NCBI GenBank assembly: GCA_038087875.1
Contig: CM075989.1
Coordinates: 1,178,001 to 1,242,000, forward strand
Length of the DNA stretch: 64,000 bases
Reading direction: 5' to 3'
DNA from: Malacoraja senta
Taxonomy: Eukaryota
Shown piece by piece: positions 2,531 to 61,360 of the stretch. Each line of letters starts with the position of its first letter. Position 1 is the stretch's first letter. Position numbers and translations under genes: made by a program. The notes beneath the pieces were generated by a model. It had not been told where the DNA came from and ran no database searches. It was given only the letters and a program-made list of their open reading frames with translations.

Positions 2531-5139
2531 ATTCAACACCTCCCATTTCTCTGTGAGAATCAAAGAAAGGCAGCCACACAGTGGAGAGAGCTTGAAGAGG
2601 TTTTCACAGGTTTAGCTGAAGATTGAAATGGATCATAAAGACTGCCATGTAGGTGTTGGGATGTCCCAACACTGTGTTGGGTGCTGGAGGTGGGCGGTGA
2701 GGGAGGATCAGAGACCTACGATACCCTGAAATACCCCCACAGGGGGATCAGGAGTATGGAATGATGGGGAATGATCTGTGCACACGACCTGTGGGAAGCA
2801 AGGATGAGAAGTAGCAGCAAAAAACAGAAGGCCAGGTGTGAGGGGCGGCAGTCTGGGAGGCAGGAAGGGGTAATGGGCAATTTCTGTCACTATGATTACC
2901 TCAAAATGAACTCAAAGCTATTTTGGAATCAGACCCACAACAGCTAAGCAGTGGCTTGAAACTGAGGAAAGTATGGAGTGTTCCGATCCCACACAACCCT
3001 TTCTTTTTATCCAGAGATGCTGCCTGACCCACTGTTACTCCAGCACTTTGTTCCTTTCTTCAGTGTAAACCAGCATCTGCAGTTCCTTTCTGCATTTGGG
3101 TCCCACAATGTAGGAGGGTGATTCTGTTTTTAAGAAGGAACTGCAAATGCTGGAAAATCGAAGGTAGAAAAAGTGCTGGAAAAACTCAGCGGGTGCAGCA
3201 GCATCTATGGAGCGAAGGAAATAGGCAACGTTTCGGGCCGAAACCCTTCTTCAAACTGAGAACTGAGTTAAGGCGGGTCGATGACAACATTTACAAGATA
3301 GTTGGACGTACATAAATACGAAAGGTTTGTAGGGATATGGGCCAAACGCAGGCAAATGGGACAGATATGGCGTCTTGGTCAGCATGGATGAGTTGGGCTT
3401 AACGGCCTATTTCCGTGCTCTTGTGACTCTTTGAATCTGTGGAAATTAAAGATGGATGGAACTGTTTCCTATCAATCCCGTGGACAAACCTGAACTTGTA
3501 CAAACCTGGTCCAGGGCTGTCGAGTCAGTGTATTTACCTCAATGTGTAACTGCCTATGTCAGAGCTGAACTATTCAGGAGTTTTGCATTGGTATCGGTTT
3601 ATTATTGTTACATGTACAATGAAGACCTTTTGTTTGTGCTATCGGAAAACACTATGCATGAATACAATTTTACTTCGGAGTCACGTGAGTGACTACGTGA
3701 AGAAGGCCGTCAGCATGCATATGCGTCATTACGTCTGACGCATTGCGCAACGACTGGCTGGCAGGCTCCTCCAGCGGTAAGTTTAAACCTGCAGGTAAGT
3801 TTTGAACCTATTTCCAGATTCTGTTTTTTTCTTGCAGGAATCTCTTCTTACTTATCCAGAGTTTTTCCGGCTGGATAATTTCAGGGCGAAGTCCGGAAGG
3901 TCCGCGGGGAAACCGGTTATGGACCGTGGGAGATCCCGGTCCGGACCGCGGGTAGCCGGCGGCCGTCGGGTTCGCTACCCAATTCGCTGACAATGCGGTC
4001 AGCGGCTCCCAGACTGCTGTGGTTCTCCAGAAAGGGGGTAAAGCCAAAAGTAAGTCGGTTTCGCCACCCGAGTCGCTGACAGTGCGGTCAGCGGCTCCCA
4101 GACCGCTGTGGTTCCCCAGAAAGGGGGTAAATCCAAAAATAAGTCAGTTAGGCCTATGGACTCGGAAGAGTCAGGTCAGGAGGGTTCCCCTCCGACAGAC
4201 CTGCATAGGTCCTCGGACGTTTAACCCAGATGGAGCATGGAAAGCGCCCTCGGGCGTTTATCCCACAAATGTGATGCTCCATCCTGATATAGGTCCGTAG
4301 GAGGGGCCATATCAGCGCAGGTATCCTCAGGGGCCTGCGGCAGCACCTGTTTCAGGGCTGCCTATGAATCTCCCTCTCTGTGGTGGGGAGTGCGAGTGGT
4401 CAGTGTCTAACTGACTTCAAATTCGAAAGTATGTCCGTGGAACATACTGGAGCACATGCGTATGGCTTCAAGGGAATTCTCGCAAACGAAGGTGTTGCTG
4501 CCGGAAGAGTTGGTTTCCAGCCATTGGCAGAAAACCCGGAAGGTGCCAGAGTTCCCCTCACGCTACAAGTGCCGGCAGTGAACAGCGCTATCAGGGGTGA
4601 CAATGGAGGGGGCATGAAATCCAGGAAATGAGACCAGCCGTCGAATCTTCTCTTCAGGTAAGACCTATCCAACAGATAAGACCTGGATGAGGAAGCAAAA
4701 GCTGTCGGACTAATCAAGGTACCAACGACGAGCAAAGCTTCATCGTTTCGGCGACGACACACCCCACGCCTCCATCGGCAGTAAGCGGTTCACTGAAGCT
4801 GATGGCAGCTTGAAAGCTGGGCAGAGGTCTTTCAGGCCAAGGCCCAAGCCGGTCTCAGGAAAAATATGGAATCAACGCACCCTACCAGTCCTACTCTCCA
4901 ATCAAGGACGGAAATAGAACCCCATCAGGGGCCTTTGAGCTTACCATAAAACCACCGGTAACCATGGAGGTAGGTGGGTCTGGTTCTTCTGAAACATGGG
5001 GTATGTGGACCATTTACAAGTTGGTAATATTTACATTTGTTTTTTCTACAAATGACAATGATGACATGAGATTCAGATCTGTTTATAAACTAAAATTATA
5101 ACATGTGATTAGTTTATACTGCTCAGTATAAAGGGTTCC

Positions 5140-5450
5140 AAGCAGGCTTGGAATTGGGGCCACAGTTGTTTTTCGAGGAAGGCTCAGTATTATGGCCAGG
5201 ATTGCCTTTCGAGACAAGCTCGGAAATATGGTCAGAGTTGTCTTTTGAGGCAGGCTCAGAATTATGGCCAGAGTTGTCTTTTGAGGCAAGCCCAGTATTA
5301 TGGCCAGGATTGCCTTTCGAGACAGGCTCGGAAATATGGCCTGAGTTGTCTTTCGAGGCAGGCTCAGTATTATGGCCAGGATTGCCTTTCGAGACAGGCT
5401 CGGGAATCTGGCCAGAGTTGTCGTTCGAGGCAGGCACGGAATTATGGCAG
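5140..5450. repeat. 36-bp minisatellite, about 8-9 diverged units, inside the DIRS element
   Basis: Unit close to attatggccagagttgtcttttgaggcaggctcag(a/t), with an alternating variant attatggccaggattgcctttcgagacaggctcgga. Confidence 0.9.
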
Positions 5451-7825
5451 GCATTGCCTGTTCATTGTGAAAGATGGAGGATGTCGGTTCATCATTGATT
5501 TAACTCGCATGTGCAGTATAGACTTTTTCAGAATAGGAAACTTCGTTACTGTCTAACATCTGATTTCCATAGGATCTTTATGGCATGCATCGATCTCAAA
5601 GATACATACTATTCAGTTCAGAAATTTATCTGGATGGGGCAATGATAACAGTTAAAGCGTTGCAAAATGGGCTAACTCCAGCTCCCGGGTTATATACCAA
5701 ATTACTAAAACCGGTGCTTGGACTGCTCAGAGCTCAAAAACACCAGTTATGGCTTAACTGGATGATATTCTAACGCTGTATTTTGTTGAAATCAACTATT
5801 TCAGCCGCAAACTATATTTGAGAAATTGGGGTTCCTCATCCATCCAGTTAAATTTAAGTTGATACCAACTAGAGTTATTTATTACTGGGATTTACCTTTA
5901 ACTATTAATTTGTCTGTGACTCTGCCCTGGGGCAAGAGATTGGAATTAATAGAAGCCTGTATCAACCTTGTTATTATGAAGCAGCCTTCTATTCATCAAG
6001 TGTAATTGCCAATATAGTAGCTGTGTTTCAGCTGTGCAAGTTGGGCCTTTGCATTATCAGAACTTACATAGTGCAAAGTAGTAACCTCTCAAGTGCCATG
6101 TAGGTCATTGTTAACAGACCTATGCTATTACCAGCTGAAGTCACAATGGTGGACAAACAGTATTCAGCATTGCTCCAGTAGTTTTTGGTCAGTAAATCTT
6201 CAGTTATATTACAAACTGATGCTAGTGCTCAAAGATGGAAAATTACGAATGCCATCTCTAGTTACGGAGGCGGATGGGATTTGCATGAGTTACCAATTCT
6301 TCAGTTTATTGGTATCAACTACCTATAGACACTAGGTGCATTCTATGGGTTAAAGGGTTATTGTGCAAATATGCATAATCTGCATGCTCAATTCCAAATT
6401 GATACTTGGAATTGTGGCATAACAGTGGCGAGGAGATACATTCTCGCTACACGGGGGAGGAATGTTCTTTTATGTCTTTCCTCCATTTTGCCTCATCAGT
6501 CGGGTCTTGCATTAAATTCAGCAAGATCCCGCTTCAGGTTTTTTCGTACTGTCTGACTGGCCTATGCAGCCATGGTTCCCGCTTATGTTGGGAATAATAA
6601 TATAACCTTATATGGTTATTCTAAACATAAAACTTTGCCGGTTCAGCCTGTGACTCGGGAAACCAGCCTCTGCATGAAAAATCAATTCATTGACTTGCAG
6701 ACTCTGAGAAGACTGCTCCTGTGGCTCGGGTTGTCAGACCGATCCATGTGGGTGCTCACTGCAGAGTGCAGGGATAGCACCAAAAAAGCAGTACTTTTCC
6801 TCTACAGGAGATGGGAAGCATTTTGTTTAAATGCTAATGTTACATATAATATGGCACGGATAACTGACGTCTTGGAGTTCATTTTCAAATGGGTCTTTGA
6901 CAATAAATTAAGTTATAGTGCCATTAACTGTGCCCAATGTGACATCTCATCATATTTCCTGCAGCCAGCGGGACCCACTCTGTCGGTTCACCCTCTGATA
7001 TCCAGTTTATAAAGGATATCTTTAACACAATTCCATACGGAAGTATGGGATATTGACATTGTGTTAACACTACTTCACCAGGGGGCTCCAGCTACAACCT
7101 TATCTTTGGCCCGGCTCTCATAAGGTAGTTATCCTCATGGCGCTGGTCACAGCGCAACTGGTCCAGTCACTACATAAATTGCGACTGGACAGGATGGTTA
7201 CATCTGCAAATAATATAATATTTTATGTTTATGATTTAGTTAAGCAGAGCAGCCCAGGGGCGTCAGGTCTCAAACTAGTTTCATGGCATACCCCATGGAC
7301 CTTCGGTTATGTGTGGTCACACCTTTACAACAATACGTCAAGGTCAACTAGAGCCTTAGAGGCTCTGATACTAGCAATGTTTGTTAGTTACAAAAAACCT
7401 CATCAGTTCAGACCATCTCTAGGTGGTTAAATGGGGTTTTGGCTTATGCAGGAGTAGATACTAATATTTTCAAATCTAACTCCACCAGGGCTGCTACAAC
7501 ATCAGCAGCAAGGGTTATGTACGTTCCGCTGGACCACATCCTAGCGGCTGCAGGATGGTCTAACGAACGAGCTTTCCAAACATTTTATAATAACCCATTT
7601 CCAGACCAGGGGAATTTCCCAACTTTATTTTAGGTTCTATTTTATAGTTTCCTCCCGGAAGAGAGGGGTTACTATTATTATTATTTGTTCATTAAAAGCA
7701 TCAGCATGTTTTAAATCTATGTCATGTCTGTATGCATTATGAATGTTTCCCTTATCTGTGGTCAACTGATGCAGTTGTGCTTGTGTGGACTCATTTTCAT
7801 GGCATGAAATCACAGAGCTTTGAAA

Positions 7826-7938
7826 TCTTCACGTAGTCACTCACGTGACTCCGAAGTAAAATAGTAAGATTAAATGAGAACTTACCAGTTTGAAGTTTGA
7901 TCTTTATTTTATGAGGAGTTACGATGAGCGATTACGTG
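7826..7938 (+). other. DIRS internal complementary region (ICR)
   Basis: 7826-7861 is the exact reverse complement of 3668-3703. 7861-7938 is the reverse complement of 8085-8162 with two mismatches by eye. Confidence 0.92.
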
Positions 7939-8648
7939 CCCTCCGCTCCCAACCCTCGTATCATAAAGATCACTCGGTAGTTCTAGTTCTCTCAAATCTT
8001 ACTATATTCAGTTCAACAACTGTTATCTGTGATTTGACACCGCTGCTTTAAGGGTTGACACGCATGCGTGCTGACGGCCTTCTTCACGTAATCGCTCATC
8101 GTAAGTCCTCATAAAATAAAGATCAAACTTCAAACTGGTAAGTTCTCGTTTAATCTTACTATCAATCCAGACACGTATACATTTCCAAATGGAATAGAGA
8201 TGTAAAAGAGTGGAGCGACTGTATTGGATGACAGACGATCCTCTCCTGGGAAGAGCCGGCACAGAGCCGCCACGCTCCAGTGCCATCCTGTTATTTGCGC
8301 TGGCTCTTCATCTTTTCATCAGATTGATTTTTTTTGCAAGTTTTCTAGTTGTACAAATAATTAAGAACTCCTGATAGTGGATGTTAACAGCAAGAATGTA
8401 AGCGGCCACAAGACAGAACTTTAGCCTGAATGAAAATGAAAACTTGCTGGAGTTTAGAAGGAAAAAATCCCAAAATGTTTCCAAGTTTAGGCGGCACAAT
8501 GGCGCAGCTGGTAGATCTGCTGCCTCACAATGTCAGAGACCCGGGTTCAATCCTGACTTCAGCTGCAGTCAATGTGGAATGTGTACGTTTCTCTGTGACG
8601 TAGAGCCCACAAATGCCCCATCCAGTTTCCTCAGGGTGCTCTGGTTTC

Positions 8649-8694
<46 letters not shown>

Positions 8695-8923
8695 GTAATA
8701 GTAATAATACTACTACTACTAATAATAATAATAATACTAATACTATTACTACTAATAATAATACTAATAATAGTAATAATGCTACTACTACTACTACTAA
8801 TAATAATAATAATACTAATAATAGTAATGATAATACTACTACTATTAATAATAATAATAATAATAATTCTAATAATAATTTTAATAATAATAATAGTAAT
8901 AATACTACTACTAATAATAATAA
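8649..8923. repeat. Compound (TAA/TAC/TAG)n microsatellite
   Basis: Directly visible trinucleotide run of about 275 bp. Confidence 0.98.
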
Positions 8924-8935
8924 TTCCAAATTTCG

Positions 8936-9270
8936 GGCGGGCACAATGGCGCAGCTGGTAAAGTTGCTGCCTCACAGTGTCAGAGACCCAGGTTTGATTC
9001 TGACTTCAGCAGCTGTCTATGTGGAGTTTGCACATTTTCCCCGTGACCGTGTGGGATTTCCTTTGGGTGCTTTGGTTTCCTCCCACATCTCAAAGACGTG
9101 TGGGTTTGTAGGTTAATTGGCCTCTGTAAATTGCCGCTAGTGTGTAGGGAGTGTATGCCCAAGTGAGTTAACATATAACTAGTGTGATCGGGTGATCAAT
9201 GGTCAGTATGGACTCGGTGGGCTGAAGGTTCTGATTCTGTGTTGTATCTTTCAATCATTCATTCTATCAA
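8936..9270 (+). mobile_element. HE1/V-SINE-like tRNA-derived SINE. Related copies at about 8489-8648, 10301-10610, 12465-12727(-), 21083-21400(-), 22680-22880, 42315-42603(-), 46083-46415, 51712-51960, 54408-54717(-), 55757-55962, 58905-59215, 60080-60420, 63885-64000(-)
   Basis: tRNA-like head (tggcgcagctggta...ggtttgattc), V-domain-like core (tggagtttgcacattttccccgtgacc...ggtttcctcccaca) and CR1-like tail (gggctgaaggttctg...ttgtatct). Confidence 0.85.
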
Positions 9271-9372
9271 GATTCAGTGATGAGATGGGGTCTCTGAGCT
9301 GAGAGATCAACATATTGTAATGAATTGACTTGAGAGTCCCAGGGTCGACTAAACTGTTCCTTCCTTCTCCAG

Positions 9373-9547
9373 GCTTGTGGCTCCAGCCCAGACCTGCACC
9401 CAGTTATCAAGTTAACTACACAAATTATGCGGAAGTGTCATCCAAAACAACACCTGCCTTTGCCCAAGCTGCAAAGCTGCTATTCATTTGTCTCACCAAA
9501 CGCAGCCCACTCCCAGTTGCTGGTGGGTCCCAGCGACACTGTGCAAG
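9373..9547 (+). CDS. AGBL1: AGBL1-like exon
   Basis: ttctccag|GCT...CAAG|gtgaga; 175 nt, phase 0 to 1. ACGSSPDLHPVIKLTTQIMRKCHPKQHLPLPKLQSCYSF... matches the CCP 'IMRKCFP..RLPLP' motif. Confidence 0.85.
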
Positions 9548-10928
9548 GTGAGATCCACAGATTTACTTCAATTTCTGCTGCCTTACTGTGAAAAGGGAAA
9601 TAGAGCTCATTTAAGTTGTCGCTTTACCATGTCAGTTTTCCATCATTGCAGGGAACCTGGGTAGTTGGGCTGGTGATGGTTGGTGCAAATGCTCCAATAT
9701 TAAGGTCATGTCTCTGGTTGGTTTTGAGCAGCAGCTTCATTGGGCAGAGACCCAATCACCTTCTCTCTTGCATGCCATCATTCTGCCAATTTTCAATGAA
9801 CCATCGGATATTAGAGGCTGAAATTGAGGCAATCAAACCTTTTATACAAAATCTCGTAAGTGTAGAATGTGTCTAAGAATGCTTTCACTTGAAAAGCGGA
9901 TGCCCACACAAATGAAATACTGCAGATGATGGAAATCTGAAATTAAACCAATGAGGGAGAGTGAGAGGGAAAGTTGGGGTCGTGAGTGTCAGCAATGATG
10001 ACCAGGGGAAACTTGGCAGATGTGCTTGTGGGCAGGACATCTGCAGTTCCCTCTCAGTCTGATCTTCATGTGGCTCACACACCACTCTCTGCCTTCTGAA
10101 ACAGTCCAGTTAGCTACTGTGACCAAGGGGCAATCAGCTTTGGACAATAAATTGGCATTGAAGAGCGAGATGTCTTCGAGCCATCCACAGTGTACAGGAT
10201 AAAAGGAATAACATTTAGTGGAAGTCCAATAAAGTCCAATTATAGATAGGTAGTGAGTCTCCAATGAGGTAGATGGTAGGTCAGGACCATCAGTCTGCTC
10301 AGTGGCACAGCTGGTGGAGCTGCTGCATCAGAGTGTCAGAGACCCGAATTTAACCCTGACCTCTGGTGCTGTTTGTGTGGAGTCTGCATGTTCTCCCAGT
10401 CACTGCGTGGGTTTCTGCCAGGTGCTCCAGTTTCCTCCCACATCTTAAAGATGTGCAGGCTTGTAGGTTAATTGTCCCTCAATAAATTGCCCCTAGTGGA
10501 AGGACTGGAGGAGAAAGTGAGAATAACATAGAACTAATGTGACCGGGTAATCAATGGTCATTGTAGTCAGTGGGCCAAAGGGCCTGTTTCAATGCCGCAT
10601 CTTTCAACGAACCAAAGAAAGTGGTCACTCTACACTGGAACTGACATGATGTATGAAGATAATAGAAATGGTGCTACATGTCAGGCAGCTCCAACTCTTT
10701 TAAGGCATGGTCCCCTTTACTGGCGTGTTGTGAAGGAATTTGAAGGAATATGATTACACAGAATGACAGGGTTCCCATAAGCACTGGGCACCATGCATTT
10801 GCCCAACACCTCATTATCAGACCAATGATACAATTCCCATAAAGCAAGGCACAGGCCAAGTAACATAAGCATCAACATTGCATGGATTGTCGAGATGGAA
10901 CTGCACTGACAGGTCTGTCTTTGTCCAG

Positions 10929-11011
10929 AGGATGTCGCAGCTGAAGAAAATGAAGACCAGGATGATGATGACGATGTGAATGAGAATGAGGAACCTGGGT
11001 GCAGTGAAGAT
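10929..11011 (+). CDS. AGBL1: AGBL1-like exon (acidic stretch)
   Basis: ttgtccag|AG...GAT|gtaagg; 83 nt, phase 1 to 0, fits both neighbours; EDVAAEENEDQDDDDDVNENEEPGCSED. Confidence 0.8.
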
Positions 11012-11932
11012 GTAAGGAAACATGAACGTTACAAACCCTGCGCCATGTTGAGTCTGGCTGTAGCTGGTATTTCCATTCCGCAAGGTCGCCTCTCTAATTC
11101 CACTCTATAGCTGCAGGGCATTCTGGATGGGGAGGGGGAGGGGGAGGGGGAGCAGTCGGACATTCAGACTGGTGCCTCTTTGTAGGTAGAAGAAGGATGC
11201 CTAGTGGTTCCGCAGAGTGGTGGGAAAGAGAGAAAGACAGTCATTTCTGGATTACTGATGTAAAACAGTGGAATGGGTGATTGGAGTGATGGTGTAGGAA
11301 GGAGGACGTGATTTAGACCCATGAGGAATCCGGGTCATTTTCTGAGGAAGGTGGAAGGCAGTAGCAGAACATGAAGGAATGGGACTAAGAAAGTGGAAGA
11401 GATTATAAACAATTATTTTGGTTTGTTCTTCATATGGAAGTCATTAAATATAACTCAACAACAACAGGAACTCTGTTCTGAAACAACACTATCTATAAAC
11501 TACACTAAACTACACTAAAAAACAGAAACTAGGAGAGCATTGTAGCAAGGGAGAAATGTGACACTTGACATGATACAATGTAGGTGGGTCAGCAATGGCA
11601 AGGACGGCATAAAAAATACATCAAGGAGGACAGATCTGCCAGTACAGTGCCATCACTCATCTCGACAACGGAACACAGATAGGTGCAGAGAATGGGCAAG
11701 ACTTTGGTAGATGGAGTAGGATGTGGGAGAGCTCTCCACTTTGGAAGGAAGTATGATAAAGGAAACTATTATTTAAATGACTGAAGCAGTAAGGTGTGGG
11801 AGAGCTGGGAAGGGGAGGGGAAGGACTTGCTTTCTCCCTCCTTCCCCTTCCCCTCCCAGCTCTCCCACAGCCTACTGTCTCCGCCTCTTCCTTTCTTTTT
11901 CCTGCCCCCCCCCCCTTCCCCCCGACATCAGT

Positions 11933-11960
11933 CTGAAGAAGGGTCTCGACCCGAAACGTC
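11933..11960 (+). ncRNA. Minimal type-I hammerhead ribozyme motif in a Penelope pLTR-like module
   Basis: CTGAAGA-A-GGGT(CTCG)ACCC-GAAA-C-GTC: complete catalytic core and helix II; helix III reduced to palindromic ACGT; helix I weak. Confidence 0.7.
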
Positions 11961-12230
11961 GTCTATTCCTTCACTCCATAGATGCTGCCTCACCCGCTGT
12001 GTTTCTCCAGCTTTTTTGTCTATCTTCGATTTTTACAGCATCTGCAGTTCTTTATTAAACATATTATTTTAATGGTGAGACTCCAAAATGTTGTGGACAA
12101 AACGGATCTGGAATCTTGGCAAAAACATTAGTAAGTAGAACATGAGACCATTAGTAAATATCGCAGGTACACAAAAATGCTGGAGAAACTCAGCGGGTGC
12201 AGCAGCATCTATGGAGCGAAGGAAATAGGT

Positions 12231-12258
12231 AACGTTTCGGGCCGAAACCCTTCTTCAG
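12231..12258 (-). ncRNA. Minimal type-I hammerhead ribozyme motif (UUCG-loop variant)
   Basis: Minus strand reads CTGAAGA-A-GGGT(TTCG)GCCC-GAAA-C-GTT. Confidence 0.7.
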
Positions 12259-13549
12259 ACTGATAGGGGGTGGGGAGAAGAAAGGAAAGAAGGAAAAGGC
12301 GGAGGAGGAGCCCGAGGGCTGGGGGAGGGGAGAAGACAACCAGATGGCTGATGAAGGGGAGGGGACAGCCAGGGCTAGCAGAATTGGGAGAATTCAATGT
12401 TCAGGCCACCAGGATGCAGACTGCCCAAGCGGAATAAATATCGCAGATAGTTTGAAATATCCACCAGGTCCGCGCCGACCAGCGATCCCTACACATTAAC
12501 AATATCCTACACACACTGGGGGCAATTTTTTATATTTACCAAGCCAATGTACCTACATACCTTTACATCTTTGGAATGTGGGAGGAAACCGAAGATCTCG
12601 GAGAAAACCCACGCAGTCACGGGGAGAACGTACAAACTCCGTATAGACAGCACCCATAGTTGGGATCAAACCCAGGTCTCCGGTGCTGCAAGCACTGTAA
12701 GGCTGCAACTCTACCGCTGCGCCACCATTATTGATCTCACTACTGCAAGGGATGTGGGGAATAAAAGTAGGGTAGGTTTGATTCCACCCTACAGAACCCT
12801 GGCGAGTATGTACCCAGGGTACAACATATTGTTTGGACTCTATCATCAGGGATGAACATTAGAGATGGAGCAGAGGAGAATCACAAGATTGTTTCTACCT
12901 ACACCGAGGCACAAGTCTGAACATCCACCTCTTGCTGCTCCCCCTCCCCCTCCATCATGCTCTATAGCCATTGAAGTGGTTAGGCAAATTGGGGTCATAC
13001 TCATTGGAGTTTAGACCAATGAGAAATGATATTATGAGATTGTCAGGGGGAACAACAGGGTTGATACTGAGAGGCCACTTCCCCTCGTGGGGCATCTAGA
13101 ACAAGGTGAACTTTTCAGAATCAAGAGTTACCATTTTAGATGGAGGAGAGACTCACCACAGTGGAGAGGCAAGGCAATGACAATCAGGCAAGAAAACTGA
13201 AATCGATTTATTAAACTAAGACTGATAGGAACCAAATATAATTGAAAATATTTGCCTTCAGATGAGACTTAGAGCCCATAAATGCCACATCCTGTGTGTG
13301 TCATGGCTGGTAGACAGCCCACATCATTGTGTGCAAGTAAGCAGGACGTTCTAGTCTTGATCAAAACCACAGGCATCATCCAACTGTTGGCCTTGGTGGC
13401 ATCTGCCTGTCTCAGTTCTTGTGATGGCCACAGTCACAACCAGAGGGTAATCAATTGGACCAAGCACGTAGTGGTATCGCAGTGTAATGAGGCGCTTAGA
13501 GAGGTGCAGGTATTCAGCTTAATCCTGAAATTATGTCCTCTTACTTAAG

Positions 13550-13666
13550 GAAGATGATCTAGAGACAGATCTATCGAGACTGATGCCCAACCCTGAGCTT
13601 GATAGACCTGCGGAGGAGTTGAGACAATATGAACAACTTTGTCCAGAACTTGTTGGATATTTTCAG
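13550..13666 (+). CDS. AGBL1: AGBL1-like exon
   Basis: ttacttaag|GAA...CAG|gtgagt; 117 nt, phase 0-0. EDDLETDLSRLMPNPELDRPAEELRQYEQLCPELVGYFQ resembles AGBL1 'DDLETDVNKL...LDRPEEELMQYE..C.EL'. Confidence 0.9.
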
Positions 13667-40711: not shown

Positions 40712-40767
40712 TAACTTGTGTGTGCTCACGAGTGATGGCACGGTAATGGTTAAATATTAACTTGATG

Positions 40768-46904: not shown

Positions 46905-47059
46905 GTAAGGAGTGTAAGACACAGTGACATTCCAGGCACATTAGAGTAGACAGAATCCACTGTTTCACATGATGAAGGCAATGCTGTTGTGGCTTAAATT
47001 GCCAAACAGCCAAAGTACTACATGATTACAGACCAATGCATTGCAAACCTCCAGCTTCA

Positions 47060-49452: not shown

Positions 49453-52400
49453 CTTCAGTAGCTATCTGCCTCTAAGTTTATTGGACGAGTGATCGGAGAC
49501 TGGAGCATGATTCTAGGTCAAATCTCATTGTTTCAACTGAGGAACTTAACATTCAAGCGATTCAACAAATTTGGATAAAATGTCTAGTATCACGATGAGC
49601 ATATGAAACCTTTGGATTGCTGTAAGAAAAAGGGTCTCAACCCAAAACATTACCCAATCCTTCTCTCCAGAGATGCTGCCTGTCCCGCTGAGTTACTCCA
49701 GCTTTTTGTGTCTATTTATAAGAAAATTACATGCATTATTATCGGTTGCACCTCAAATGCAAGAAGAAGAATAAGGTTGCACCTGCAGTTCCCTGTGTCT
49801 CCACTTTACTAACGGCCTCCAGGGCGGGAATCTGTTGTCCTTACCTGGTATAGTGTCCAGATTCACCACTCTTATCTGCCCTCTGAAATGCCTCTGACAT
49901 CCTGCCATATTAGGTTAGGTAATCAAAGATATTGCTGTTTAGGTTACATTGAAGAAGGAGGCATTTTCTTGTGATGGATCTCTGTCCTGAAACATTAACC
50001 GTTTCATTCTCCACAGATGCTGCCTGACCTGCTGTGTGCTTTCTGCACATTCTGTATTTATTGCAGAAGTTCATGTTCATAAGTTCTAGGAGCAGAATCA
50101 GGCCATTCGGCCCATCAAGTCTACTCTGCCATTCAATCATGGCTGATCTATCTTTCCCTCTCAACCCCATTCTTCTGCCTTCTTCCCATAACCCCTAACA
50201 CCCGTACTAATCCAAAACTGTCAATCTCTGCCTTAAAAACATCCATGACTTGGCCTCCACAGCCTTCTGTGGCAATGAATTCCACAGACTCACCACTCTC
50301 TGATTAAAGAAATTCCTCCTCATTTCCTTTCCAAATGTTGTCCTTTTATGGTAAGGCTATGGTCTCTGGTCCACGACTCTCCCACTAAGAGCTGGGCATT
50401 TGGGATATTGGTTCGCTGCTAAGGACTGTGCGATGTGTGTCGAGTATCCTGCTAGCATCTTTCTCTCTTTCCCAACACGATGCAATTCACTGCTTTCACA
50501 CATTTATTCACTTTCATTTTGAAAGCTGCAGTTGAATCTACACCCGCACAGGCAGTAGATCCTGGCCCAGGTCCACATGATGAGACTGACCACTCTGCCT
50601 CATTCACCTGTGCACCTTGCAACCTGTCTCCTGGGGCCTTTTAGCTTGTTGCCAATAGGAACAGTCTTTCCCCTCATTCTGCCTCAACTTGTCTTATTTT
50701 ATCTACTTCTCCCACAGCTGCTTATATAAAGAATACGCCTCCACATTGCATCCCTCATGAGATCACACCTTCCCTACCCAGCAATGGGTTTACGAGGGCA
50801 CCACCCTGCTGAGTCATTTGTCGCTGGCCCTGATTGGTCCTAATCTTTTCTGGCCTCTTAAACCACCCCCCCCTTCCGCCCACCCATCCACCTTCAATCT
50901 GAAGAAGGGCCCCAACCTGAAACGTCACCAGAGATGTTGCCTGACCTGCTGAGTTACTCCAGCACTTTGTATCTATCTTCCACACACTTCCTTGTGCTAT
51001 CCTTCCATGTTAAATGCCAAAGATTGTTTTCTTGCCTGAGGATGCTATGTAAAAACTTTTAGAATCAAGCATTCATGAGAGAGCAGTAAAAAGCTTGGGT
51101 AAGACTGCTATATATTCAGCAGGTCAGGCAACGTCTGTGGAGGGAAGCAGGCAGATGGCATTTCAATGTAATAACAAGGAACTGCAAATGCTGGTTTATA
51201 CCAAAGATAGACATAAAATACCGAAATCACTCTGGGACAGAGAGCATCTGTCGAGAAAATGGATGGGTGATGTTTCTGGTCGGGACCCTTCTTCAGACTG
51301 ATTGTAGAGGGGGCAGGAAAGAAATCTGGGAGAGAAGGGGCGGAACATGAACTGTGCTGCCACTTCTCTTTCTTAATGTTCTTCCTATAGATGATGTTTC
51401 AAGTTGGGATAATGCCTGAGTCTGGAGAAGGGTCTCGACCTGAAATGTCCTCTATCCATTACTCCCCACCGGTGCTGCCCGATCCGCTGACTTTCTCCAG
51501 CAGTTTATTTCTCGTTCAAGATTCCAGCATTTGCAGTCTCTTGTGTTCCTATTAAACCATTGGGCATGTCTTGCAAGGATTGAAAGGGGTTGCTCTAATC
51601 TACTCCAAGCCATTGGTGAAATTGCACTGAAAAGCCGTTGCCTCCTCCAATCTTTCTCCTCAAGTTTTGCACCATAATGATGAACCCTCTGCTCCACCCA
51701 ATCCATACCCGATACGGGTGCTGTCTGTGCGTTTGTACGTTCTCCCTGTGACCTGCATGGGTTTTGTCCGGGTGCTCTAGTTTTCCCCCACAACCCAAAG
51801 ATGCACAGGTTTGTCGGTTAAATAGCTTCTGTAAATTCTAAATATCCCTAGTGTGCAGGATACTGTTAGTGTGTGGGATGATCGCTGGTTGGTGCGGACA
51901 CGTGGGCTGAAGGTCCTGTTTTTTGCATTGTATCTCTAAAGTCTAAAGTCTAAAAGTCTGAATCCATGAGCTAAACTTTTCAGCCCAATGAATTTATAAA
52001 TAATTTGTGATTAACTAGAAGATTAAATGAACATCTCTATATCTGCATGCCCAAGGATTATCTGCTAACCAATATACACTGCAAATGCTGGTTTATACCA
52101 AAGATAGACATAAAATGCTGAAATCACTCAGCGGGTCAGAGAGTATCTGTGGAGAAAATATATCTTGGTTCGCAGCTTTCTTGGACAGATAATCCTTGAC
52201 TAGAATTGGAAGTCGGCAGCTTTATACCCGAGACATTATGTAGTTTGGGTTTAGGGACATGTCGTACACAGTTTATCTTCCCCGAAGCCTTCGTATTGTA
52301 GCTACAGCATAAGACTTTTATATTTTGATTCATGTGTTTGCAAGTATAATGCTTCCTCTGAATACAGTTCAGTATGAATTATTATGATAAATATTTATAC

Positions 52401-55208
52401 ACTGTAACACCAAGACACTTACACACCACAAGCTCCGCATTATAAATAAAACAAGATGCGAATCTGTGTATTGCACTCAGTATGGCTTCTGACCGTTCAT
52501 GCTTTATATTTCACACTGAGGCAGGCGGCATGGCAGTTTCATAATTCAACAGCTTGAGGGGATTTACTGTGAAAGTGAATTTACAGTATTTTCATGTAAT
52601 TCAAATGTTTGGACAATTCCACAGTTTAAATGTTGAACCACATTTAACATCAAATCATAGCACTTATGTTTTTAATGGGTCTCATAGATATTAGTGTTGA
52701 TGACAATTAGTGTCATGCCAACAGCAGCAGGAAATTGAAGATTCTCTGTAAAATAAGGTGGTTTCAGAACGAATATGATTTGAGAACAAGCCAGAGAGAG
52801 TTATCATTAAAAGCATTGACACATGAAGTTGGAATTCTTAATATTGTGCTAACTTTCCTTGAGATATCTGTAGAGGTGTTATCAGTGATTGGGTTGGGTC
52901 CGCGCCAGGTTTTAAAACAAATCGAAAATCTAATCCAACAGCACAAAAATAAGTGCAGGAGAAGGGCCTTCGAGCCTTCGAGCCAGCACCGCCATTCAAT
53001 TTGATCATTGTTGATCATTTAAAATCAGTACCCCATTCCTGCTTTTTCCCCATTTCCCTTGATTCCTTTAGCCCTAAATGCTAAATCGAACTCACCCCTG
53101 AAAACAAGGAACTGCAGATGCTGGAAAAAACACAAAGTGCTGAAGTAACTCAGCGGGTCAGGCAGCATCTCTGTAGAATATGGGTAGGCAACGTTTCTGA
53201 CTGATTGTGATAGGGAGGAGTTGGCTGGACAAGAGTTTGTGTGGTGCAACAGAGCCTGGCAAGTGATAGGTGGATACAGGTGAGCGGGATTGATTAGCAG
53301 ATGGGTGGACAAAGGCCAAGATGAAAAGGAGACAGAAGACTGTGAGATAGGGAGAGATGTGAGTTGTGTGGCCAGAGGAAGGGATGTAGGTGGAAGGAGA
53401 TGGGGGGAAGGGTAAAAGGGGGAAGAGATAATGGGAGAAATTGGTGTGCATCCACATGGGGCACAAAAGAGGGGGGACGAAAAAGGAGTGCAGGGGGTGG
53501 GGGGGGTTATTAGTTAGTCACTATTGCCACAGTAAGGCTACATGCAAACTGGAGGAACAGTACCTCATATTCCACTTGGGTAGCTTACAACCCAGCGTTA
53601 TGAATGTTGAATTGTCCGATCTTTTTTCTCCTCCTTATCTTCCCTGTGAAATTCATGCCTCTTATCTCCTTATTTCACACCCCTTTTTGTCTCAGTTTCT
53701 TCTCTGGCCTTTATCCACCCAACTGCCAATCAACTTCCTCAGCTGTATCCACCTATCACTTGCTAGGCTTTGTCCCGCCCGCACCTCTCCTTCAGCTTTC
53801 TTCCCTTTACTACAATCGGTCTAAAGAAAGGTCCCAGCCTGAAACATCAGCTGTCTATGCTCTCTGGTGATACTACTTGGCCTGTTGATGATTTCACAAA
53901 ATCTGTCAGAGAATGGATCATGCAACTAAAAAAAAATTACTTATCCATGCGCCACATACATTGGTGCCTAAACTCGCATTTGCTGCCTGTCTGTGACTCC
54001 GTAGGGGTGCCTTGCCGACCCATTTTGAAGGGCATTTAAAAAATACAATATTTTTGTGGGTCTGTGGTCACCTGGGCAAGGACAGGACATTTCCTTCTCC
54101 AAATGAAAGCTAGAAAGAACCAAAGTAGGATCCAAACTCATTCTCCAGATAAATTATCCATATATTTGGGAACCAGTCCAAGAGCTTAATTATCATACTA
54201 CTGCACAGGTATTTTGGAGAAAGTTATATAAGTGATTACACTTATGGTTCTAAAAGAATAAACTTTATCTGAGGTAGACAAAAATGCTGGAGAAACTCAG
54301 CGGGCGAGGCAGCATCTATGGAGCGAAGGAAATAGGCGAAGTTTCGGGCCAAGACCCTTCTTCGATGCTGCCTCACCCATCTGCAGTTCCTTCTGAAGCT
54401 TTATCTTGGTTTAGTTCAGTGTAGTTTAGAGATGCAGCATGGAAACAGGCCCTTCGGCCCATCAAGTCCGTACCGAACAGTGATCCCTGCAGACTGACAC
54501 TATCCTACACACACTAGGGACAATTGACTATTTTACCAAAGCCAATTAGCTTACAAACCTCTACGTCTTTGGAATATGGGAGGGAACCAGAGCATCCGAA
54601 GAAAACCCACGTAGGTCACAGGGAAACTCCATACAGACAGCACCCCTAGTCAGGATCAAATCCGGGTCTCTGGCGCTGTGATGCGGCAGCTCTACCGCTG
54701 CTCCACTGTGCCGCCCCTAATGTTACACATTAACATTAATTGAGAAAATAACTATCTTGCTTATATGTATTGAGCGTCAAGTCTTTAAACTTCACCGTTA
54801 ATGCAATGAGTCACAGTGTGGGGTCTGAGACTCGACAGGGACAACAGCGGCATAGAAAGAGAGAAACATGGAAAATAGGTGCAGGAGTAGACCCTTCGAC
54901 CCTTCAAGTCAGCACCGCCATTTAATATGATCATCGCTAATCATCCAAAATCATCCTGCTTTCTCCACATATCCCTTGATTCCGTTAGCCCAAAGAGCTC
55001 TATCTAACTCATCCAAGTAAGTGAAGGAGCTCTGATACCAGGAGCAAGGAGGGTATCTGACCAAGCTCAGAATACGTTGAGTTAACCTTTTGATTAAGTA
55101 AGGATTGTAATCTCTCGGAGAAATATAGAGGAATAAGATTTAATTGTCTCCTGATAGATGGAGTTATGTTGACACAAAAGCATCATTTTCTGTGCCTCCT
55201 TGTTGCAG

Positions 55209-55296
55209 GGATGCAGCCAGTGTTGTATTCAGTCCACGAGGCCTTGTGTGGAAGAGCTCAGTGGGTCCGAGCAGGCACTGATATCTCCTATTACAG
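55209..55296 (+). CDS. AGBL1: AGBL1-like exon
   Basis: gttgcag|GG...TACAG|gtacga; 88 nt, phase 1 to 2; [29 protein letters not shown](R). Confidence 0.95.
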
Positions 55297-55962
55297 GTAC
55301 GATTTCCTCATTTGTTATCTGTTATCATGGTTGGGTTGAGTACAAAAGAACAAAGGAAGCTCTGTGTCGTTATGTGTTGTAGCCAGCCTGCTGAATATTG
55401 GGTGAATGGGATGAGAAAGGATGGTCTGATCTTTATATTGACGTTTATCCCAACTCCACCAGTGGTTTAAGAATGCAATTAAGGAGAAGGGTTTAGTGGT
55501 ATTGAATGTGTGTTGTCACCACAGTGCTCACACCCACATGATCACTCTGTAAACCCTGCCCACTCCAATTATGATCACTGACAACTGTCTACAGAAACGC
55601 TGGCACAGAAACTGATTATTTTAACTTATTGTACTTGCACCAATATGAGACCTAACCATTTACTCCGATTTATTTTGTGACTGGCTTTATTCCATTTCAT
55701 TATTAACAGCATATTTAATGGTCAGTACTGGAGTAACATATTCTTCTCCGAGATGCTGGGCAGCACGGTGGCCCAGTGGTAGAGTTGCTGCCTTACAGCA
55801 CCAGGGACCCGGGTTCCATCCTGACTACGGGTGCTGTCTGTATGGAGTTTGTATGTTCTCCCCGAGACCCGCGTGGCTTTGCTCCGGGTGCTCCAGTTTC
55901 CTCCCACACTCCAAAGACTTACAGGTTTTTGCTGGTTAATTGGCTTTGTAAAAATGGTAAAA

Positions 55963-56433
<471 letters not shown>

Positions 56434-58069
56434 TTAGTGTGCAGGGATCTCTGGTCGACGCGGACTCGGTGGGCTGAAAGGCCTGTTTCCGTGCTGTATC
56501 TCTAAACTAAACTATGCTGAACTGGACTGGATGTCTTTCAGTAACTATTCCTTTACAATCTTGCATCTTCTGTCAGCATGACCTACAGTGACAGAACAAC
56601 AATCTGTGAGGCTATCTATTCTAAGGTTACTGCAGTTTCACAGAATTCCCAATGATTTGCTGAGTCCAGTAGTGGGGTTTTATAACTTTTATTCAAGCAC
56701 AACGGTTATACGGCATCAGAACAAAGCATAAAAATATCTGCAGACCTCAACTAAAAACTGAACTTATCATAGCTAACAAAACAATGGAAATGTAACTAAA
56801 GGACTGAAGAGTGAACATGATGAGAGACAAAAGACACTAGTCTAACACACTGGCCTTTTACAAAACAGAATACAGAAAATCAAGCTTTCCTTCTCTGTAC
56901 AGGGTGATTTGACAACAGCTGTCCAGGGTGAAAGCCGTCAGGGTTAAATTATTCTGCAGCCAGCTGGACCTCTCGGTACTTCACGGAGACACAGCTTTTG
57001 CAGCCGCCTGTCTTATCAGAAACAACCATCCTTGGAGTTCCTTCAAACGTGGCCTATTTCCTTCGCTCCATAGATGCTGCTGCACCCGCTGAGTTTCTCC
57101 AGCATTTTTGTGTACCTTGGATTTTCCAGCATCTGCAGTTCCTTCTTTAACACGTACATCCTTGGAGTCTCACTGGACAGTTACATTTTAATTTGAGTTT
57201 TCCAATGTTTTTCCGGCTAACTTTTTCACACAGAGGGTGATGGGTGTATAGAACAAGCTGTCAGGGGATGTAGTTGAGGCTGGGACTATCCCAATGTTTA
57301 AGAAACAGTTAGATAGGTACATGGATGGCACAGGTTTGGAGAGAAATATCAATTGCAAATTACTTCTGACAATAATCAATGCAGCCATTTAAAAATCATG
57401 GATAAAAAATGGACGCAACTTTGGCCTCATCACACGGGTAAGAATTTATTCTAAACTTTTCCTTTTACTGTTAACTGTTATTTTCTGTCAATTTCTCATT
57501 CTTTTATCGAGCCGGATGTCTTTCCAGTTAGTTTGGGCCTGAAAGAAGATCAAAGGCTTCAAAAAAAAACAACAAAATAACTGCATTGATTTTATCTATG
57601 TGGAGTGTGTGTGTTCTCTCTGTGATCCCATAGATATCCTGTGGTTTCTCTGGTTTCCCAATCACAGGATGGTGGGTTAAATAGCGGCTTTAAAGTTACC
57701 CCCGGTGAAAGCGTTTGATGGGAGACGCAGGGGCGTTTGGCAGTGTTGGTGCAGGATTCCCAAAAGGTTAATTCATAGGTTGAGTCAGTAGTAAGGGGTG
57801 GAGCAGGCACAACGGACTGAGTGGATACAAATATTTAAGAAGTGCAGATGCTGGAAAAATCGAAGGTAGACAAAAAAGCTGGAGAAACTCAGCAGGTGAG
57901 GCTGCATCTATGGAGCGAAGGAATAGGTGACGTTAAACGCTCGCCTACTCGCTCCATAGATGCTGCCTCACCCGCTGAGTTTCTCCAGCTTTTTTGTCTA
58001 CAGTGGATACAAATAGATAACTTTCACATGTTTATTTATCCTTTATAAAGATTACTCTTTTTTAGGATA

Positions 58070-58356
58070 ATTATTACTGTCACATGTACTGCGAACATTA
58101 TTACTGTCACATGTACTGCGAACATTATTACTGTCACATGTACTGCGAACATTATTACTGTCACATGTACTGCGAACATTATTACTGTCACATGTACTGC
58201 GAACATTATTACTGTCACATGTACTGCGAACATTATTACTGTCACATGTACTGCGAACATTATTACTGTCACATGTACTGCGAACATTATTACTGTCACA
58301 TGTACTGCGAACATTATTACTGTCACATGTACTGCGAACATTATTACTGTCACATG
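58070..58356. repeat. Perfect 27-bp tandem repeat, 10.6 copies
   Basis: Unit attattactgtcacatgtactgcgaac. Confidence 0.98.
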
Positions 58357-60481
58357 CATGCCATCCAAACAGATCAGATATACCATACACAGATACAATC
58401 TGTCCAAATGTAAATAAATAGATTACAAAGGGGAAGATCTAGAGGGATAATATAGTTCTCATCATTGTAGTGCCCCAGTTCCTTCAACAAAGGTACACTG
58501 TCCACAATGGGGTAGAGGTGAATTGAACAGTACCCTTGTTTGTGGAAGGACTATTCTGAAGCCTGAGAGGGGAAACTGTTCCTGGTGGTGCACACTTTCA
58601 AACTTCTCTACTTCCTGTCAGACAAGAGTCGGGAGAAGAAGGAATTACCAGGGTGGGCCTAGTCTTGGATTACGTTTTCCTTTTCCGAAAAATGTCTCAC
58701 TTTTTCCTGTACTTTCCTGTACAGGCTAGTTTGCCATCCCATTCATACAGAATAAAAATCTTCAGTGTTTAACCTGCTCCTCCTCTGATGTGTAACTCTA
58801 ACTGCTTCTGGAGTGTTTACCAGTCAGATCATTCTCTCGTGTGAATCGAACGGCCAACAAGTTATTACGCAAGGGAGTGTCACTGGAGCCTTCATCAAAA
58901 GAGCGCAGTGTCACAGCTGGTGGAGCTGCTGCGTCACAGTGCCAGTGTCCTGGGTTTAATCCTGACCTCCAGTGCTGTCTGTGTTGGATTTGCATGTTCT
59001 CCCTGTGACTGTGTGGGTTTTCTCCGGGTGCTCTGGGTTTCCTCCCACATCCCAAAGACGTGTGGGTTTATAGGTTAATTGGCCTCTGCAAATTGCCCCT
59101 AATGGTAAGGAGTGGATGAGATAGTGGGGTAACATAGAACTAGTGTGAACGGGTGGTCGATGGTCGGCGTGGGCCTAGTAGACGAAAGGGCATCTTTCCA
59201 TGAGTATCTTCAATCAATTTAAAACAGAAATGGTTTATTTTACAAAATGTTTTGCTTTCATCCATTTCCAATTTGTTTATTAATCAAAGTTGCTCTCATG
59301 CAGTGAGGTATTAATAGCACTGGCTTTCTGATACCACAAGATTTGAGAGATTTTTCGGTTGACAGTAAATTGTCTCTTTATTGACTGCCAGGTGGTGCTA
59401 TCGGTTTTTGTGTAGCTAACACAGAGTATGTGACATGCACCATATTATGCTTCTGGTTGGTAGTAGTGACTATTTGGAATGTGATTACTGGTGCCCGAGG
59501 GCACTACCTTTGTAAAATTTGAATTTTGCAGTGTGAGTTAAGACCTTTGATTCCCTCCCAACAATGGGAATGACTAATCTGAATTCACTTTGGGAGCGTG
59601 TTAAACTAACACTGGAATACAAATGAGTATTAATAGACCAAATGAAGCATAAAGCCCAGAACCTCTCACACATTGGTAACCTGGAGTTGTTACCATCAGC
59701 TGCGGGTTTCAGTGCGGCTTCTGTATGTCATCAGAATCTGTGCGATCAGACATCAAGATGGATCATTATTCAACAGAGATTAATACTGGGCACCTTCGTA
59801 ATGCATAGACTGCAGGGGGCTGTAACTACAATATAATCTGTGAGTTGGGTAGACGAGTCTATTTAATGGTTGTGCTGTGGACCTGGGACAGGGTGGGTAC
59901 AACACCAGACGCTGACTGCACAATGGGCAGTGGTAATGGATGGACATTATATCTGCATGGGTGGTGATATTACTGGGCTAATAACCTGTTCATTTAAGAT
60001 AACTTATCTCCACTGTGAAAGTGATTTGACGAGCTCAGTGATCCTGGTCCACACACCCCTCACCGTGGAAACGGTACTTCTTAGTTTAGTTTGGTTTAGT
60101 TTAGAGATACAGCACGGAAACTGGCCCCTTTGGCCAACCAGCAAACCCCGTACACTAGCACTATCCTACACACTAGGGTCAATTTTCAATCTTTACCAAG
60201 GCCAATTAACCAAAGTGGGCAGCACAGTAGAGTTGCTACCTTACAGTGCTAGAGACCTAGGTTTGATTCTGACTACGGGTGTTGTTGTACGGAGTTTGTT
60301 CATTCTCCCCGTGACCTGTGTGGGTTTTCTCCGGGTGTTCTGGTTTCATCCCACACTACAAAGATGTACAGGTTTGTACGTTAATTGGCTACTGTAAAAA
60401 TTGAAAATTGTCCCTATAATTTGTGTTACTGTGCTCTGTACAGACAGCACCTGTAAGTCATGATCAAACCTGGGTCTCTGC

Positions 60482-60972
60482 CTTTCAGAACACCTTTGAT
60501 AAGGTCCCACACAGGAGATTAGTGGGCAAAATTGGAGCACATGGTATTGGGAAAAGGGTATTGACAAGGATAAAAAAATTGGTTGGCAGACAGGAAACAA
60601 AGAGTAGGAATTAACGGGTCCCTTTCAGAATGGCAAGTAGTGGCGAGTGGGGACCACAAGGCTCGGTGCTGGGAACGTAGCTATTTACAATATATAATAA
60701 TGATTTAGATGAAGGGATTAAAAATCACATTAGCAAATTTGCAGATGACACAAAGCTGGGTGGCAGTGTGAACTGTGAAGGGGATGTTATCAGGATGCTG
60801 GGTGACTTGGATAGGTTGGGTGAATGGGCAGATGCAGTATAAAGTGGATAAATGTAAGGTTATCCACTTTGGTGGCAAGAAGAAGAAGGCAGATTATAAT
60901 CTGAATAGTGTCAGATTAGGAAAAAGGGAAGTGCAACGAGACCAGGGTGTGCTTGTACGTCAGTCACTGAAA
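60482..60972 (+). mobile_element. CR1 RT fragment
   Basis: FQNTFDKVPH, FADDTKLGG and KCKVIHFG motifs. Confidence 0.9.
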
Positions 60973-60974
60973 AT

Positions 60975-61360
60975 TCCCAATCTGACCTTTCTGTCCTGGG
61001 CCTCCTCCATTGTCAGAGTGAGGCCCAGCGCAAATTGGAGGAGCAGCACCTCATATTTCGCTTGAGTAGCTTACACCCCAGCGGTATGAATGTTGACTTA
61101 TCTAACTTCAAATAGCCTTTGCTTTCCCTCTCTCTCCATCCCCTCCCTCTTCCCAGTTCTCCCACTAGTTTTACTGTCTCCGGCTACATTCTATCTCTGT
61201 GCCGCCCACTCCCCTGACATCAGTCTGAAGAAGGGTCTCGACCCGAAACGTCACCCATACCTTGTCTCCAGATACAGGCATGCTGCCTGTTCCAGTGAGT
61301 TACTCCAGCATTTTGTGTCTACCTTTGATATAAATCAGCATCTGAAGTTCTTTCCTACAC
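60975..61360 (+). mobile_element. Penelope-like element 3' end with pLTR and hammerhead
   Basis: LSVLGLLHCQSEAQRKLEEQHLIFRLSSLHPSGMNVDLSNFK*, then a pyrimidine-rich UTR, the hammerhead and the shared downstream arm. Confidence 0.85.
61225..61252 (+). ncRNA. Minimal type-I hammerhead ribozyme motif in a Penelope pLTR
   Basis: cagt-CTGAAGAAGGGTCTCGACCCGAAACGTC-accc, about 110 nt after the PLE stop codon. Confidence 0.75.

What the first reader, a model, noticed from the sequence alone, without database searches (positions are those of the whole stretch)
3227..61252. Dispersed family of minimal hammerhead ribozyme motifs throughout the introns
Seen: intact cores CTGAAGA-A-[helix II]-GAAACGT(C/T) at 11933(+), 12258(-), 22891(+) and 61225(+). 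Decayed copies lie near 3254(-), 16134(-), 23827(-), 25445(-), 43956(+), 44685(-), 45748(+), 49621(+), 50899(+), 51297(-), 51422(+), 53821(+) and 54363(-). Helix II varies but stays paired (GGGT-CTCG-ACCC versus GGGT-TTCG-GCCC, a YUCG tetraloop). Established: Penelope-like elements carry minimal type-I hammerheads whose palindromic helix III is thought to work through dimers. Inference: this density (about one per 4 kb) implies a very large genome-wide ribozyme-bearing family, and three intact cores are in the AGBL1 sense. Caveat: helix I is only about 2 bp in these copies, so activity is uncertain.
Basis: partly seen in the sequence, partly recalled or inferred. Interest (0 to 1): 0.8.

Follow-up and report, generated by a model that had tools for sequence, protein, structure and literature searches.

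The report
Skate Penelope retroelement minimal hammerheads
These motifs are the minimal hammerhead-ribozyme sequence from the end repeat of a young, intact Penelope-like jumping gene, scattered in over 100,000 copies through a skate-like genome; this kind of motif was described in 2014, and the copies in this gene's introns are likely inert debris.

Summary
The four intact cores and all 13 decayed copies are where stated, and 11 more fragments exist. The motif heads a 95-135 nt repeat, the pseudo-LTR (pLTR) end of a Penelope-like retroelement (PLE). Intact 3.9-4.0 kb elements with an RT + GIY-YIG ORF and one hammerhead in each pLTR lie elsewhere in the genome, about 99% identical. The core pattern has 108,456 matches genome-wide (control 353). 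Distant PLE relatives keep the core while helices I and II covary, so selection acts on the element. The AGBL1 intron copies decay neutrally, show no strand bias (14+/14-) and have ordinary density. The class is known (Cervera & de la Pena 2014), and this scan noted it before in shark genomes. Cleavage is untested, and predicted folds disfavour the ribozyme unaided. One extra result: 16 of 30 young copies begin 0-6 nt upstream of the core, 0 of 32 ORF-long copies do, and few start at the cut site. This fits uncut RNA templates for short copies and tandem or circular ones for long copies.

The parts
11926..12060 (+). pLTR end: intact minimal hammerhead (core 11933-11960, cut after 11960) plus tail; upstream pyrimidine tract also element-derived
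12135..12436 (-). young-subfamily 3' end: last ORF codons, pyrimidine tract, intact hammerhead at 12258, tail; 98% identical to the intact element
22885..23019 (+). solo copy, intact core at 22891; element sequence starts a few nt upstream of the core
60973..61360 (+). 5'-truncated element: GIY-YIG C-terminal codons, pyrimidine tract, intact core at 61225, tail
50894..50982 (+). core intact, helix II weakened, deletion after the cut site
16063..16685 (-). decayed copy (core 16133) with upstream remnants of the Cys linker and GIY-YIG region
3126..3259 (-). decayed young-type copy (C3 to T)
2977..3092 (+). fragment lacking the core's 5' half
23742..23832 (-). decayed copy, 50 nt before the largest AGBL1 exon match
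25323..25490 (.). head-to-head pair of truncated copies (25323-25446 minus, 25444-25490 plus)
29752..29846 (-). fragment lacking the core's 5' half
43840..44058 (.). head-to-head inverted pair (43840-43950 minus, 43952-44058 plus)
44602..44687 (-). decayed copy
45747..45870 (+). decayed copy
49622..49717 (+). decayed copy
49976..50047 (+). old fragment
51089..51302 (-). decayed copy (51172-51302) and tail fragment (51089-51159)
51417..51542 (+). decayed copy
52075..52158 (-). tail fragment
53105..53199 (-). tail fragment
53546..53888 (+). old copy with GIY-YIG C-terminal remnant and decayed core at 53821
54264..54363 (-). copy truncated inside the core
57045..57153 (+). young-type fragment starting after helix II
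57835..58014 (.). head-to-head pair of core-less fragments
681..62020 (+). host gene CCP4/AGBL1; exon matches at 681-918, 9370-9555, 13550-13672, 23882-24520, 29432-29509, 42899-42997, 46748-46906, 55208-55309, 61850-62020

Best explanation
The motifs are the minimal type-I hammerhead sequence in the pseudo-LTR of a young, intact Penelope-like retrotransposon, likely kept by selection on the element to cut its own RNA as a protein-assisted dimer, while the copies in the AGBL1 introns are likely inert insertion debris. Shown: element layout, copy number, covariation between families, neutral decay of dispersed copies, two 3' end points, target-site duplications, and a 5' end hot spot at the core. 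Inferred: two cores 3.9 kb apart in one transcript would pair through the ACGU palindrome to form helix III. The element protein would be needed, because the unaided fold is unfavourable. Reverse transcription would start inside the tail, 65 or about 102 nt after the cut site, and copy across an uncut site. A lone intron copy has no partner core nearby and would rarely cut.
For: 15 of 20 loci picked for long ORFs have the motif on both sides of a 1224-1302-codon frame, 3.9-4.2 kb apart. Pfam finds RVT_1 (E 7e-6) and GIY-YIG (E 1e-3), both under the gathering cut-off, and the top homologues carry RVT_1 with PF26215. 12 of 13 other full-length copies are >=98.9% identical to L157. All 20 loci found with the window's Cys-linker peptide carry the motif downstream on the ORF strand. 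10 of 80 distant-relative loci show the same core (13 hits, reversed control 0), and in 8 it lies 98-216 nt after the ORF match. Helix covariation score is 0.60 against 0.21 shuffled (0/500) and <=0.12 when slid. Between four skate subfamilies 0 of 11 core columns and 13 of 60 tail columns differ. G12, in a CpG, is lost in 24 of 107 copies against 48 of 266 for tail CpGs. 3' ends cluster at +65 and +101-104. The motif fits the published consensus. The anole PLE hammerhead cuts only with protein.
Against: No cleavage data exist for this motif. Predicted helix I pairing is 0.0 in 10 of 10 folds and helix II <=0.07 in 9 of 10. A competing helix wins in the consensus fold. The dimer fold (about -13 kcal/mol) is weaker than alternative dimers (-21 to -25). 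Within skate, helix changes are only one-sided (U-A to U.G), and 0/11 versus 13/60 is not significant alone. Pooled over all copies the non-CpG core is more conserved than the tail (4.6% vs 8.7% mismatch, p 2e-6). I ascribe this to unresolved subfamilies, since within subfamily B it is 4.4% vs 6.0%, but weak selection on copies is not excluded. The 14-row covariation alignment holds related rows, so 0/500 is not a probability. Naiad PLEs spread without canonical hammerheads.
Confidence: 0.85

Rival explanations
1. The skate motif is a catalytically dead relic. It is kept only because it overlaps other cis signals of the element (promoter or initiator, splice acceptor, protein-binding site).
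For: Helix I is only GU/AC and the unaided fold is disfavoured. Copies span the cut site, and only 5 of 264 start near it. Hammerhead mutants did not affect insertion by the anole element in vitro.
Against: The catalytic core, the G10.1-C11.1 pair and the ACGU palindrome are invariant from skate to relatives at about 45-50% protein identity, while both helices covary. 2-bp helix I motifs are in the published set: Culex, Drosophila virilis, Oikopleura.
Confidence: 0.1
2. Some intronic copies were co-opted by the host to cut or regulate AGBL1 pre-mRNA.
For: Three of four intact cores are in gene sense. Pooled core conservation exceeds the tail's.
Against: Strands are 14+/14-. Window density equals the genome's: 28 in 64 kb against 236 in 600 kb. 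The intact sense cores are 11 kb and 38 kb apart. Core CpG decay is at the neutral rate. The 12258 copy is 98% identical to the young element, so intactness tracks age.
Confidence: 0.04
3. The short repeat is an independent non-autonomous SINE or retrozyme with its own master copies, not a direct by-product of the autonomous element.
For: 118 of 143 core-covering copies have no shared element sequence upstream. They have fixed ends and target-site duplications. Retrozymes are reported to derive from pLTRs.
Against: Short and long copies share the same subfamily marks and the same two 3' ends. The repeat is nt 1-130 of the intact unit. No tandem arrays of the short unit appeared in the window's repeat scan.
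Confidence: 0.12

Closest known systems
Minimal hammerheads (min-HHR) in pLTRs of metazoan Penelope-like elements (Cervera & de la Pena 2014, PMC4209133)
   Same: CUGANGAH core, extra base before helix II, G10.1-C11.1, no loop 3 with palindromic ACGU, position in both pLTRs, mostly dispersed single copies
   Different: Helices are at the short end (helix II 4 bp, helix I 2 bp GU/AC). The count is far higher (108,456 by a sequence-only pattern; about 52,000-68,000 with pairing, extrapolated) than their 4,000 (coelacanth) and 9,000 (Xenopus), though the descriptors differ. No shark or skate was found in the parts read.
PAc, Poseidon PLE of Anolis carolinensis (Frangieh et al. 2024, PMC11167929)
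   Same: Hammerhead upstream of two internal RT start sites that bound a 30-40 nt tail; uncut RNA is the template
   Different: Here the first Met is 135 nt after the cut site, not inside the ribozyme. The ORF is 1212 aa with a long Pro-rich insert and a Cys linker.
Neptune clade of EN+ PLEs (as summarised in Craig et al. 2021, PMC8557442)
   Same: RT, then a CX4CX2C linker, then C-terminal GIY-YIG; partial tandems, inverted 5' copies, tail
   Different: Clade not tested by a tree with named references; Nematis elements also have a Zn-finger-like linker.
Non-LTR retrozymes (bioRxiv 10.64898/2026.07.22.740005)
   Same: PLE-derived hammerhead repeats, reported also in one chondrichthyan
   Different: Those are defined as tandem arrays of short units; these are dispersed solos and inverted pairs.

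Membership tests
PLE min-HHR | CUGANGA and GAAA boxes with NUH cut site | tested here: met
PLE min-HHR | Helix II with G10.1-C11.1 and one extra base after A9 | tested here: met
   (G-C in 14 of 14 rows)
PLE min-HHR | Palindromic minimal helix III (15.2-16.2) | tested here: met
   ACGU in all 26 structure-filtered places (the filter required a palindrome)
PLE min-HHR | Short helix I | tested here: met
   2 bp in skate; covaries in relatives; 2-bp cases published
PLE min-HHR | Located in both pLTRs of a PLE | tested here: met
   15 of 20 long-ORF loci
PLE min-HHR | Self-cleavage as dimer or with protein | not testable with these tools
   only folding energies, which disfavour the unaided fold
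EN+ Penelope-like element | Single ORF with RT and C-terminal GIY-YIG | tested here: met
EN+ Penelope-like element | Partial tandems, inverted 5' copies, optional 30-40 nt tail, short TSD | tested here: met
Neptune clade | CX2-5CxxC linker between RT and EN | tested here: met
   CNRKRCNTC in L157; motif definition
Neptune clade | RT phylogeny with named Neptune references | not tested
   no named references were held
Non-LTR retrozyme | Tandem arrays of short hammerhead units | tested here: not met
   window copies are dispersed or inverted pairs; not scanned genome-wide
Rfam hammerhead families | Covariance-model hit | tested here: not met
   no hammerhead hit at E<=1

The most novel reading that the evidence does not exclude
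The copy ends record two RNA templates and give genomic support for the hammerhead circle model. A linear, uncut transcript starting at an initiator (TCAGTC) about 3 nt before the core is copied from its nearby tail and yields hundreds of thousands of 95-135 nt 'ribozyme-only' inserts. Full-length copies, none of which stop there (0 of 32), come from endless templates made when the two pLTR hammerheads cut and the RNA is ligated into a 3.9 kb circle. The ribozyme would then be what lets a single element make more-than-unit-length offspring.
Probability: 0.2. Interest if true: 0.65.

Novelty: new member of a known kind. Interest (0 to 1): 0.3.

Why it matters
As a class it is known, so it changes little. 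Two things give it some value. First, scale: an apparently still intact family with about 100,000 intact-core copies and perhaps 480,000 core-covering copies offers far more insertion ends than the published cases. Second, the role of PLE hammerheads is still open (Craig 2021; Frangieh 2024). The sharp 5' hot spot in short copies, its absence in long copies and the lack of ends at the cut site give a concrete test of whether cut-and-circularised RNA makes the full-length copies.

Tried and rejected
Rfam search: only spurious miRNA hits on inverted repeats, no hammerhead.

An ORF start at the ATG 23 nt after the cut site was suggested by L051 and rejected. In intact copies that ATG opens a 41-codon upstream frame, and the long ORF's first Met is 135 nt after the cut.

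A second hammerhead near the ORF start was rejected by inspection, for lack of helix II.

RNA evidence: no RNA holder listed. Contig overlays showed no splice joint into the CAG/T site among the joints printed, with 83 more not shown, and cannot show RNA ends; they count neither for nor against.

Cap-derived extra G before AGT: G is 810 of 1,980 non-C cases (41%), against 27% by base frequency but 33-35% by host xAG/xAGT frequency. Only 1 of 30 inspected cases was a clean duplication + G + AGT; the others were microhomology, filler or inversions. Inconclusive.

Spliced-template origin of the hot spot: no shared exon-1 sequence was seen upstream, but a very short exon could be missed.

TCAGT upstream of the core is not kept in the distant relatives.

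Lunse et al. 2017 is not held. No structure prediction or protein tree was run.
Full report
Observation. A direct scan finds the four intact cores at 11933(+), 12258(-), 22891(+) and 61225(+), and a fifth intact core with weak stems at 50899(+). The motif is the head of a dispersed repeat of about 130 nt. Rfam has no hammerhead hit at E<=1. The host gene is CCP4/AGBL1 on the + strand, and its best homologue is a skate protein at 89%. The copies lie outside the exon matches; one small exon was not found.

Copy number. The genome (G000, 1.94 Gb) holds 18,728 exact copies of one 28-mer and 19,101 of the other, controls 0. The pattern CTGANGAN{10,18}GAAACGTH has 108,456 matches against 353 for the reversed pattern. 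In 60 evenly spaced 10-kb stretches of the large contigs there are 236 HMM hits, 148 covering the core, and 0 in reversed sequence. This extrapolates to roughly 760,000 and 480,000. With pairing required, 21 places in 600 kb have helix II and the palindrome, and 16 also have a 2-bp helix I. The window's density (1 per 2.3 kb) is the genome's (1 per 2.5 kb), and its copies are 14 plus, 14 minus.

Parent element. Upstream of 61225, 53821 and 16134 the frames read as the end of a GIY-YIG domain and a Cys linker. Searching the genome with that linker gave 150 scored matches of 37,262 candidates. I extended 20 stretches, picked mostly for long frames. All 20 carry the motif downstream on the ORF strand, and in 18 the printed ORF ends 58-149 nt before it. 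An N-terminal search then found intact elements. Of 20 stretches picked for long frames or tandem spacing, 15 have the motif on both sides of a 1224-1302-codon frame, and three show three motifs at a 3.9-4.0 kb period. L157 has a 3,918-bp unit and a 1,212-aa protein from the first Met, with RVT_1 and GIY-YIG matches under Pfam's cut-offs and 563 homologues of the same make-up. Twelve of 13 other copies are at least 98.9% identical to it. The CX4CX2C linker points to the Neptune clade; no tree was made.

Is it a hammerhead under selection? Among 110 long copies, the catalytic G12, which sits in a CpG, is changed in 24 of 107, like tail CpGs (48 of 266). Within subfamily B the non-CpG core differs at 4.4% and the tail at 6.0%. 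Pooled, the figures are 4.6% and 8.7% (p 2e-6), with the excess mostly in the two mixed groups. Between four subfamilies, 0 of 11 core columns and 13 of 60 tail columns differ. Helix changes inside skate are one-sided only. Distant relatives are more telling. Of 80 metagenome loci encoding related RTs (many contigs end before the ORF does), 10 carry the core, 13 hits in all, with 0 in reversed sequence. I aligned 9 of the 13 hits with 5 skate copies, leaving out two hits with a longer helix III, one with U3 and one near-duplicate. Six of 8 pairs change on both sides, with a covariation score of 0.60 against 0.21 shuffled and at most 0.12 slid; the rows are related, so this is not a p-value. 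Selection therefore acts on master elements, and the scattered copies drift.

Can it cut? This was not tested. Folding gives helix I probability 0.0 in 10 of 10 folds and helix II at most 0.07 in 9 of 10, because the purine-rich core pairs with the pyrimidine-rich stretch after the cut site. The ACGU dimer fold is about -13 kcal/mol against -21 to -25 for alternative dimers. The 45-copy consensus fold is also the competing helix. Published min-HHRs are inactive as monomers and weak as dimers, and the anole one cuts only with its protein. A lone intron copy, 11 kb or more from the next intact sense core, would rarely cut.

Copy ends. Of 143 core-covering copies, 25 share element sequence upstream, 78 have unique DNA and 40 have an inverted copy right upstream; a few older long copies may be misfiled as unique. 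Of 30 young copies, 16 stop 0-6 nt upstream of the core, none at 7-12, and 14 go on 13 nt or more. Their 3' ends cluster at +65 and +101-104, bounding a tail of about 38 nt. Nine of the 16 short ones have 10-21 nt flanking repeats. Genome-wide, adding AGT, CAGT and YATCAGT to the young 28-mer leaves 13,305, 11,325 and 9,068 of 19,101. Contigs from other runs show loose ends at the same place. By contrast, of 33 rows (32 places) where a hammerhead lies just before the ORF start, none stops there; all extend 28 to over 2,600 nt (Fisher p 5e-7). The 14 rows without that hammerhead end at scattered points, none at the cut site, and only 5 of 264 HMM hits start near the cut site. So templates were uncut or rejoined, and the stop is set by position and seen only in short copies. 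Three features coincide at that spot: an initiator-like TCAGTC (motif recalled), a pyrimidine tract with CAG/T like the D. virilis splice acceptor at the 5' end of helix I, and the near-palindrome TCAG-T-CTGA. The extra-G test was inconclusive. Run-off at an RNA 5' end is my preferred reading, at about even odds. The circle model is one way to explain the long copies; tandem read-through and homing into the element's own pLTR are others.

What is known. Cervera & de la Pena 2014 (PMC4209133; parts 1-2 of 4 of the text, a supplement search and part 2 of 3 of supplement file 2; file 1 could not be searched) describe this motif, its dispersed abundance and the circle idea. Frangieh 2024 (PMC11167929; main text read) shows internal RT starts, the tail and protein-assisted cutting. 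I read passages only of Craig 2021 (PMC8557442), a ribozyme review (PMC6765202), Schostak 2008 (PMC2377424) and Arkhipova 2013 (PMC3846280). For the 2026 retrozyme preprint I saw the outline, most of the results and passages; its supplements were not seen and may cover the chondrichthyan case. Lunse 2017 was seen only as cited in the review. Searches for a skate or shark report of this family found none, and one search found no account of the 5' hot spot, but most subscription papers and Repbase were not searched. Earlier notes of this scan report the same class in shark genomes and none in this genome.

Verdict. The feature is real and correctly read, and is a new member of a known kind. A host function is unlikely. 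Interest is 0.3, for the scale, the intact young family and the testable end pattern.

Noticed in passing
window 26227-28382 and 33691-35880: Large inverted duplication (95-98% complementary, about 5.3 kb apart) of LINE-type RT fragments
   Followed up: no
window 11771-11892: Strong hairpin formed by an inverted piece of the pLTR's pyrimidine tract; it causes most of the spurious miRNA hits in Rfam
   Followed up: partly
window 8493-8590, 8940-9144, 10296-10498, 22681-22880, 55761-55972, 58902-59104: Another dispersed family, with a tRNA-like head by eye (recalled as resembling elasmobranch HE1-type SINEs; not tested)
   Followed up: no
window 36400-38900: Broken frames that look like protease, RNase H and integrase pieces of an LTR retrotransposon (by eye)
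   Followed up: no
window 5100-5460, 8600-8975, 56130-56300, 58040-58400: Tandem arrays: 36-nt unit, (AAT/AAC)n, (GT)n and 27-nt unit
   Followed up: no
window 9555-13550: No tblastn match for CCP4 residues about 312-336; the exon may be diverged, absent or in an assembly gap
   Followed up: partly
L157:2788-2913: A 41-codon upstream frame begins 23 nt after the cut site and overlaps the main ATG out of frame
   Followed up: partly
G000:C1:703464 and 736943: A variant with the same core but a different helix II region, in two places; possibly another subfamily
   Followed up: no
L163, L164, L165: Head-to-tail arrays of at least two full units of the young element, natural sources of multimeric RNA
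   Followed up: partly
L286-L315: 5' junctions often carry short templated duplications of target or element sequence after an 11-15 nt target duplication
   Followed up: partly
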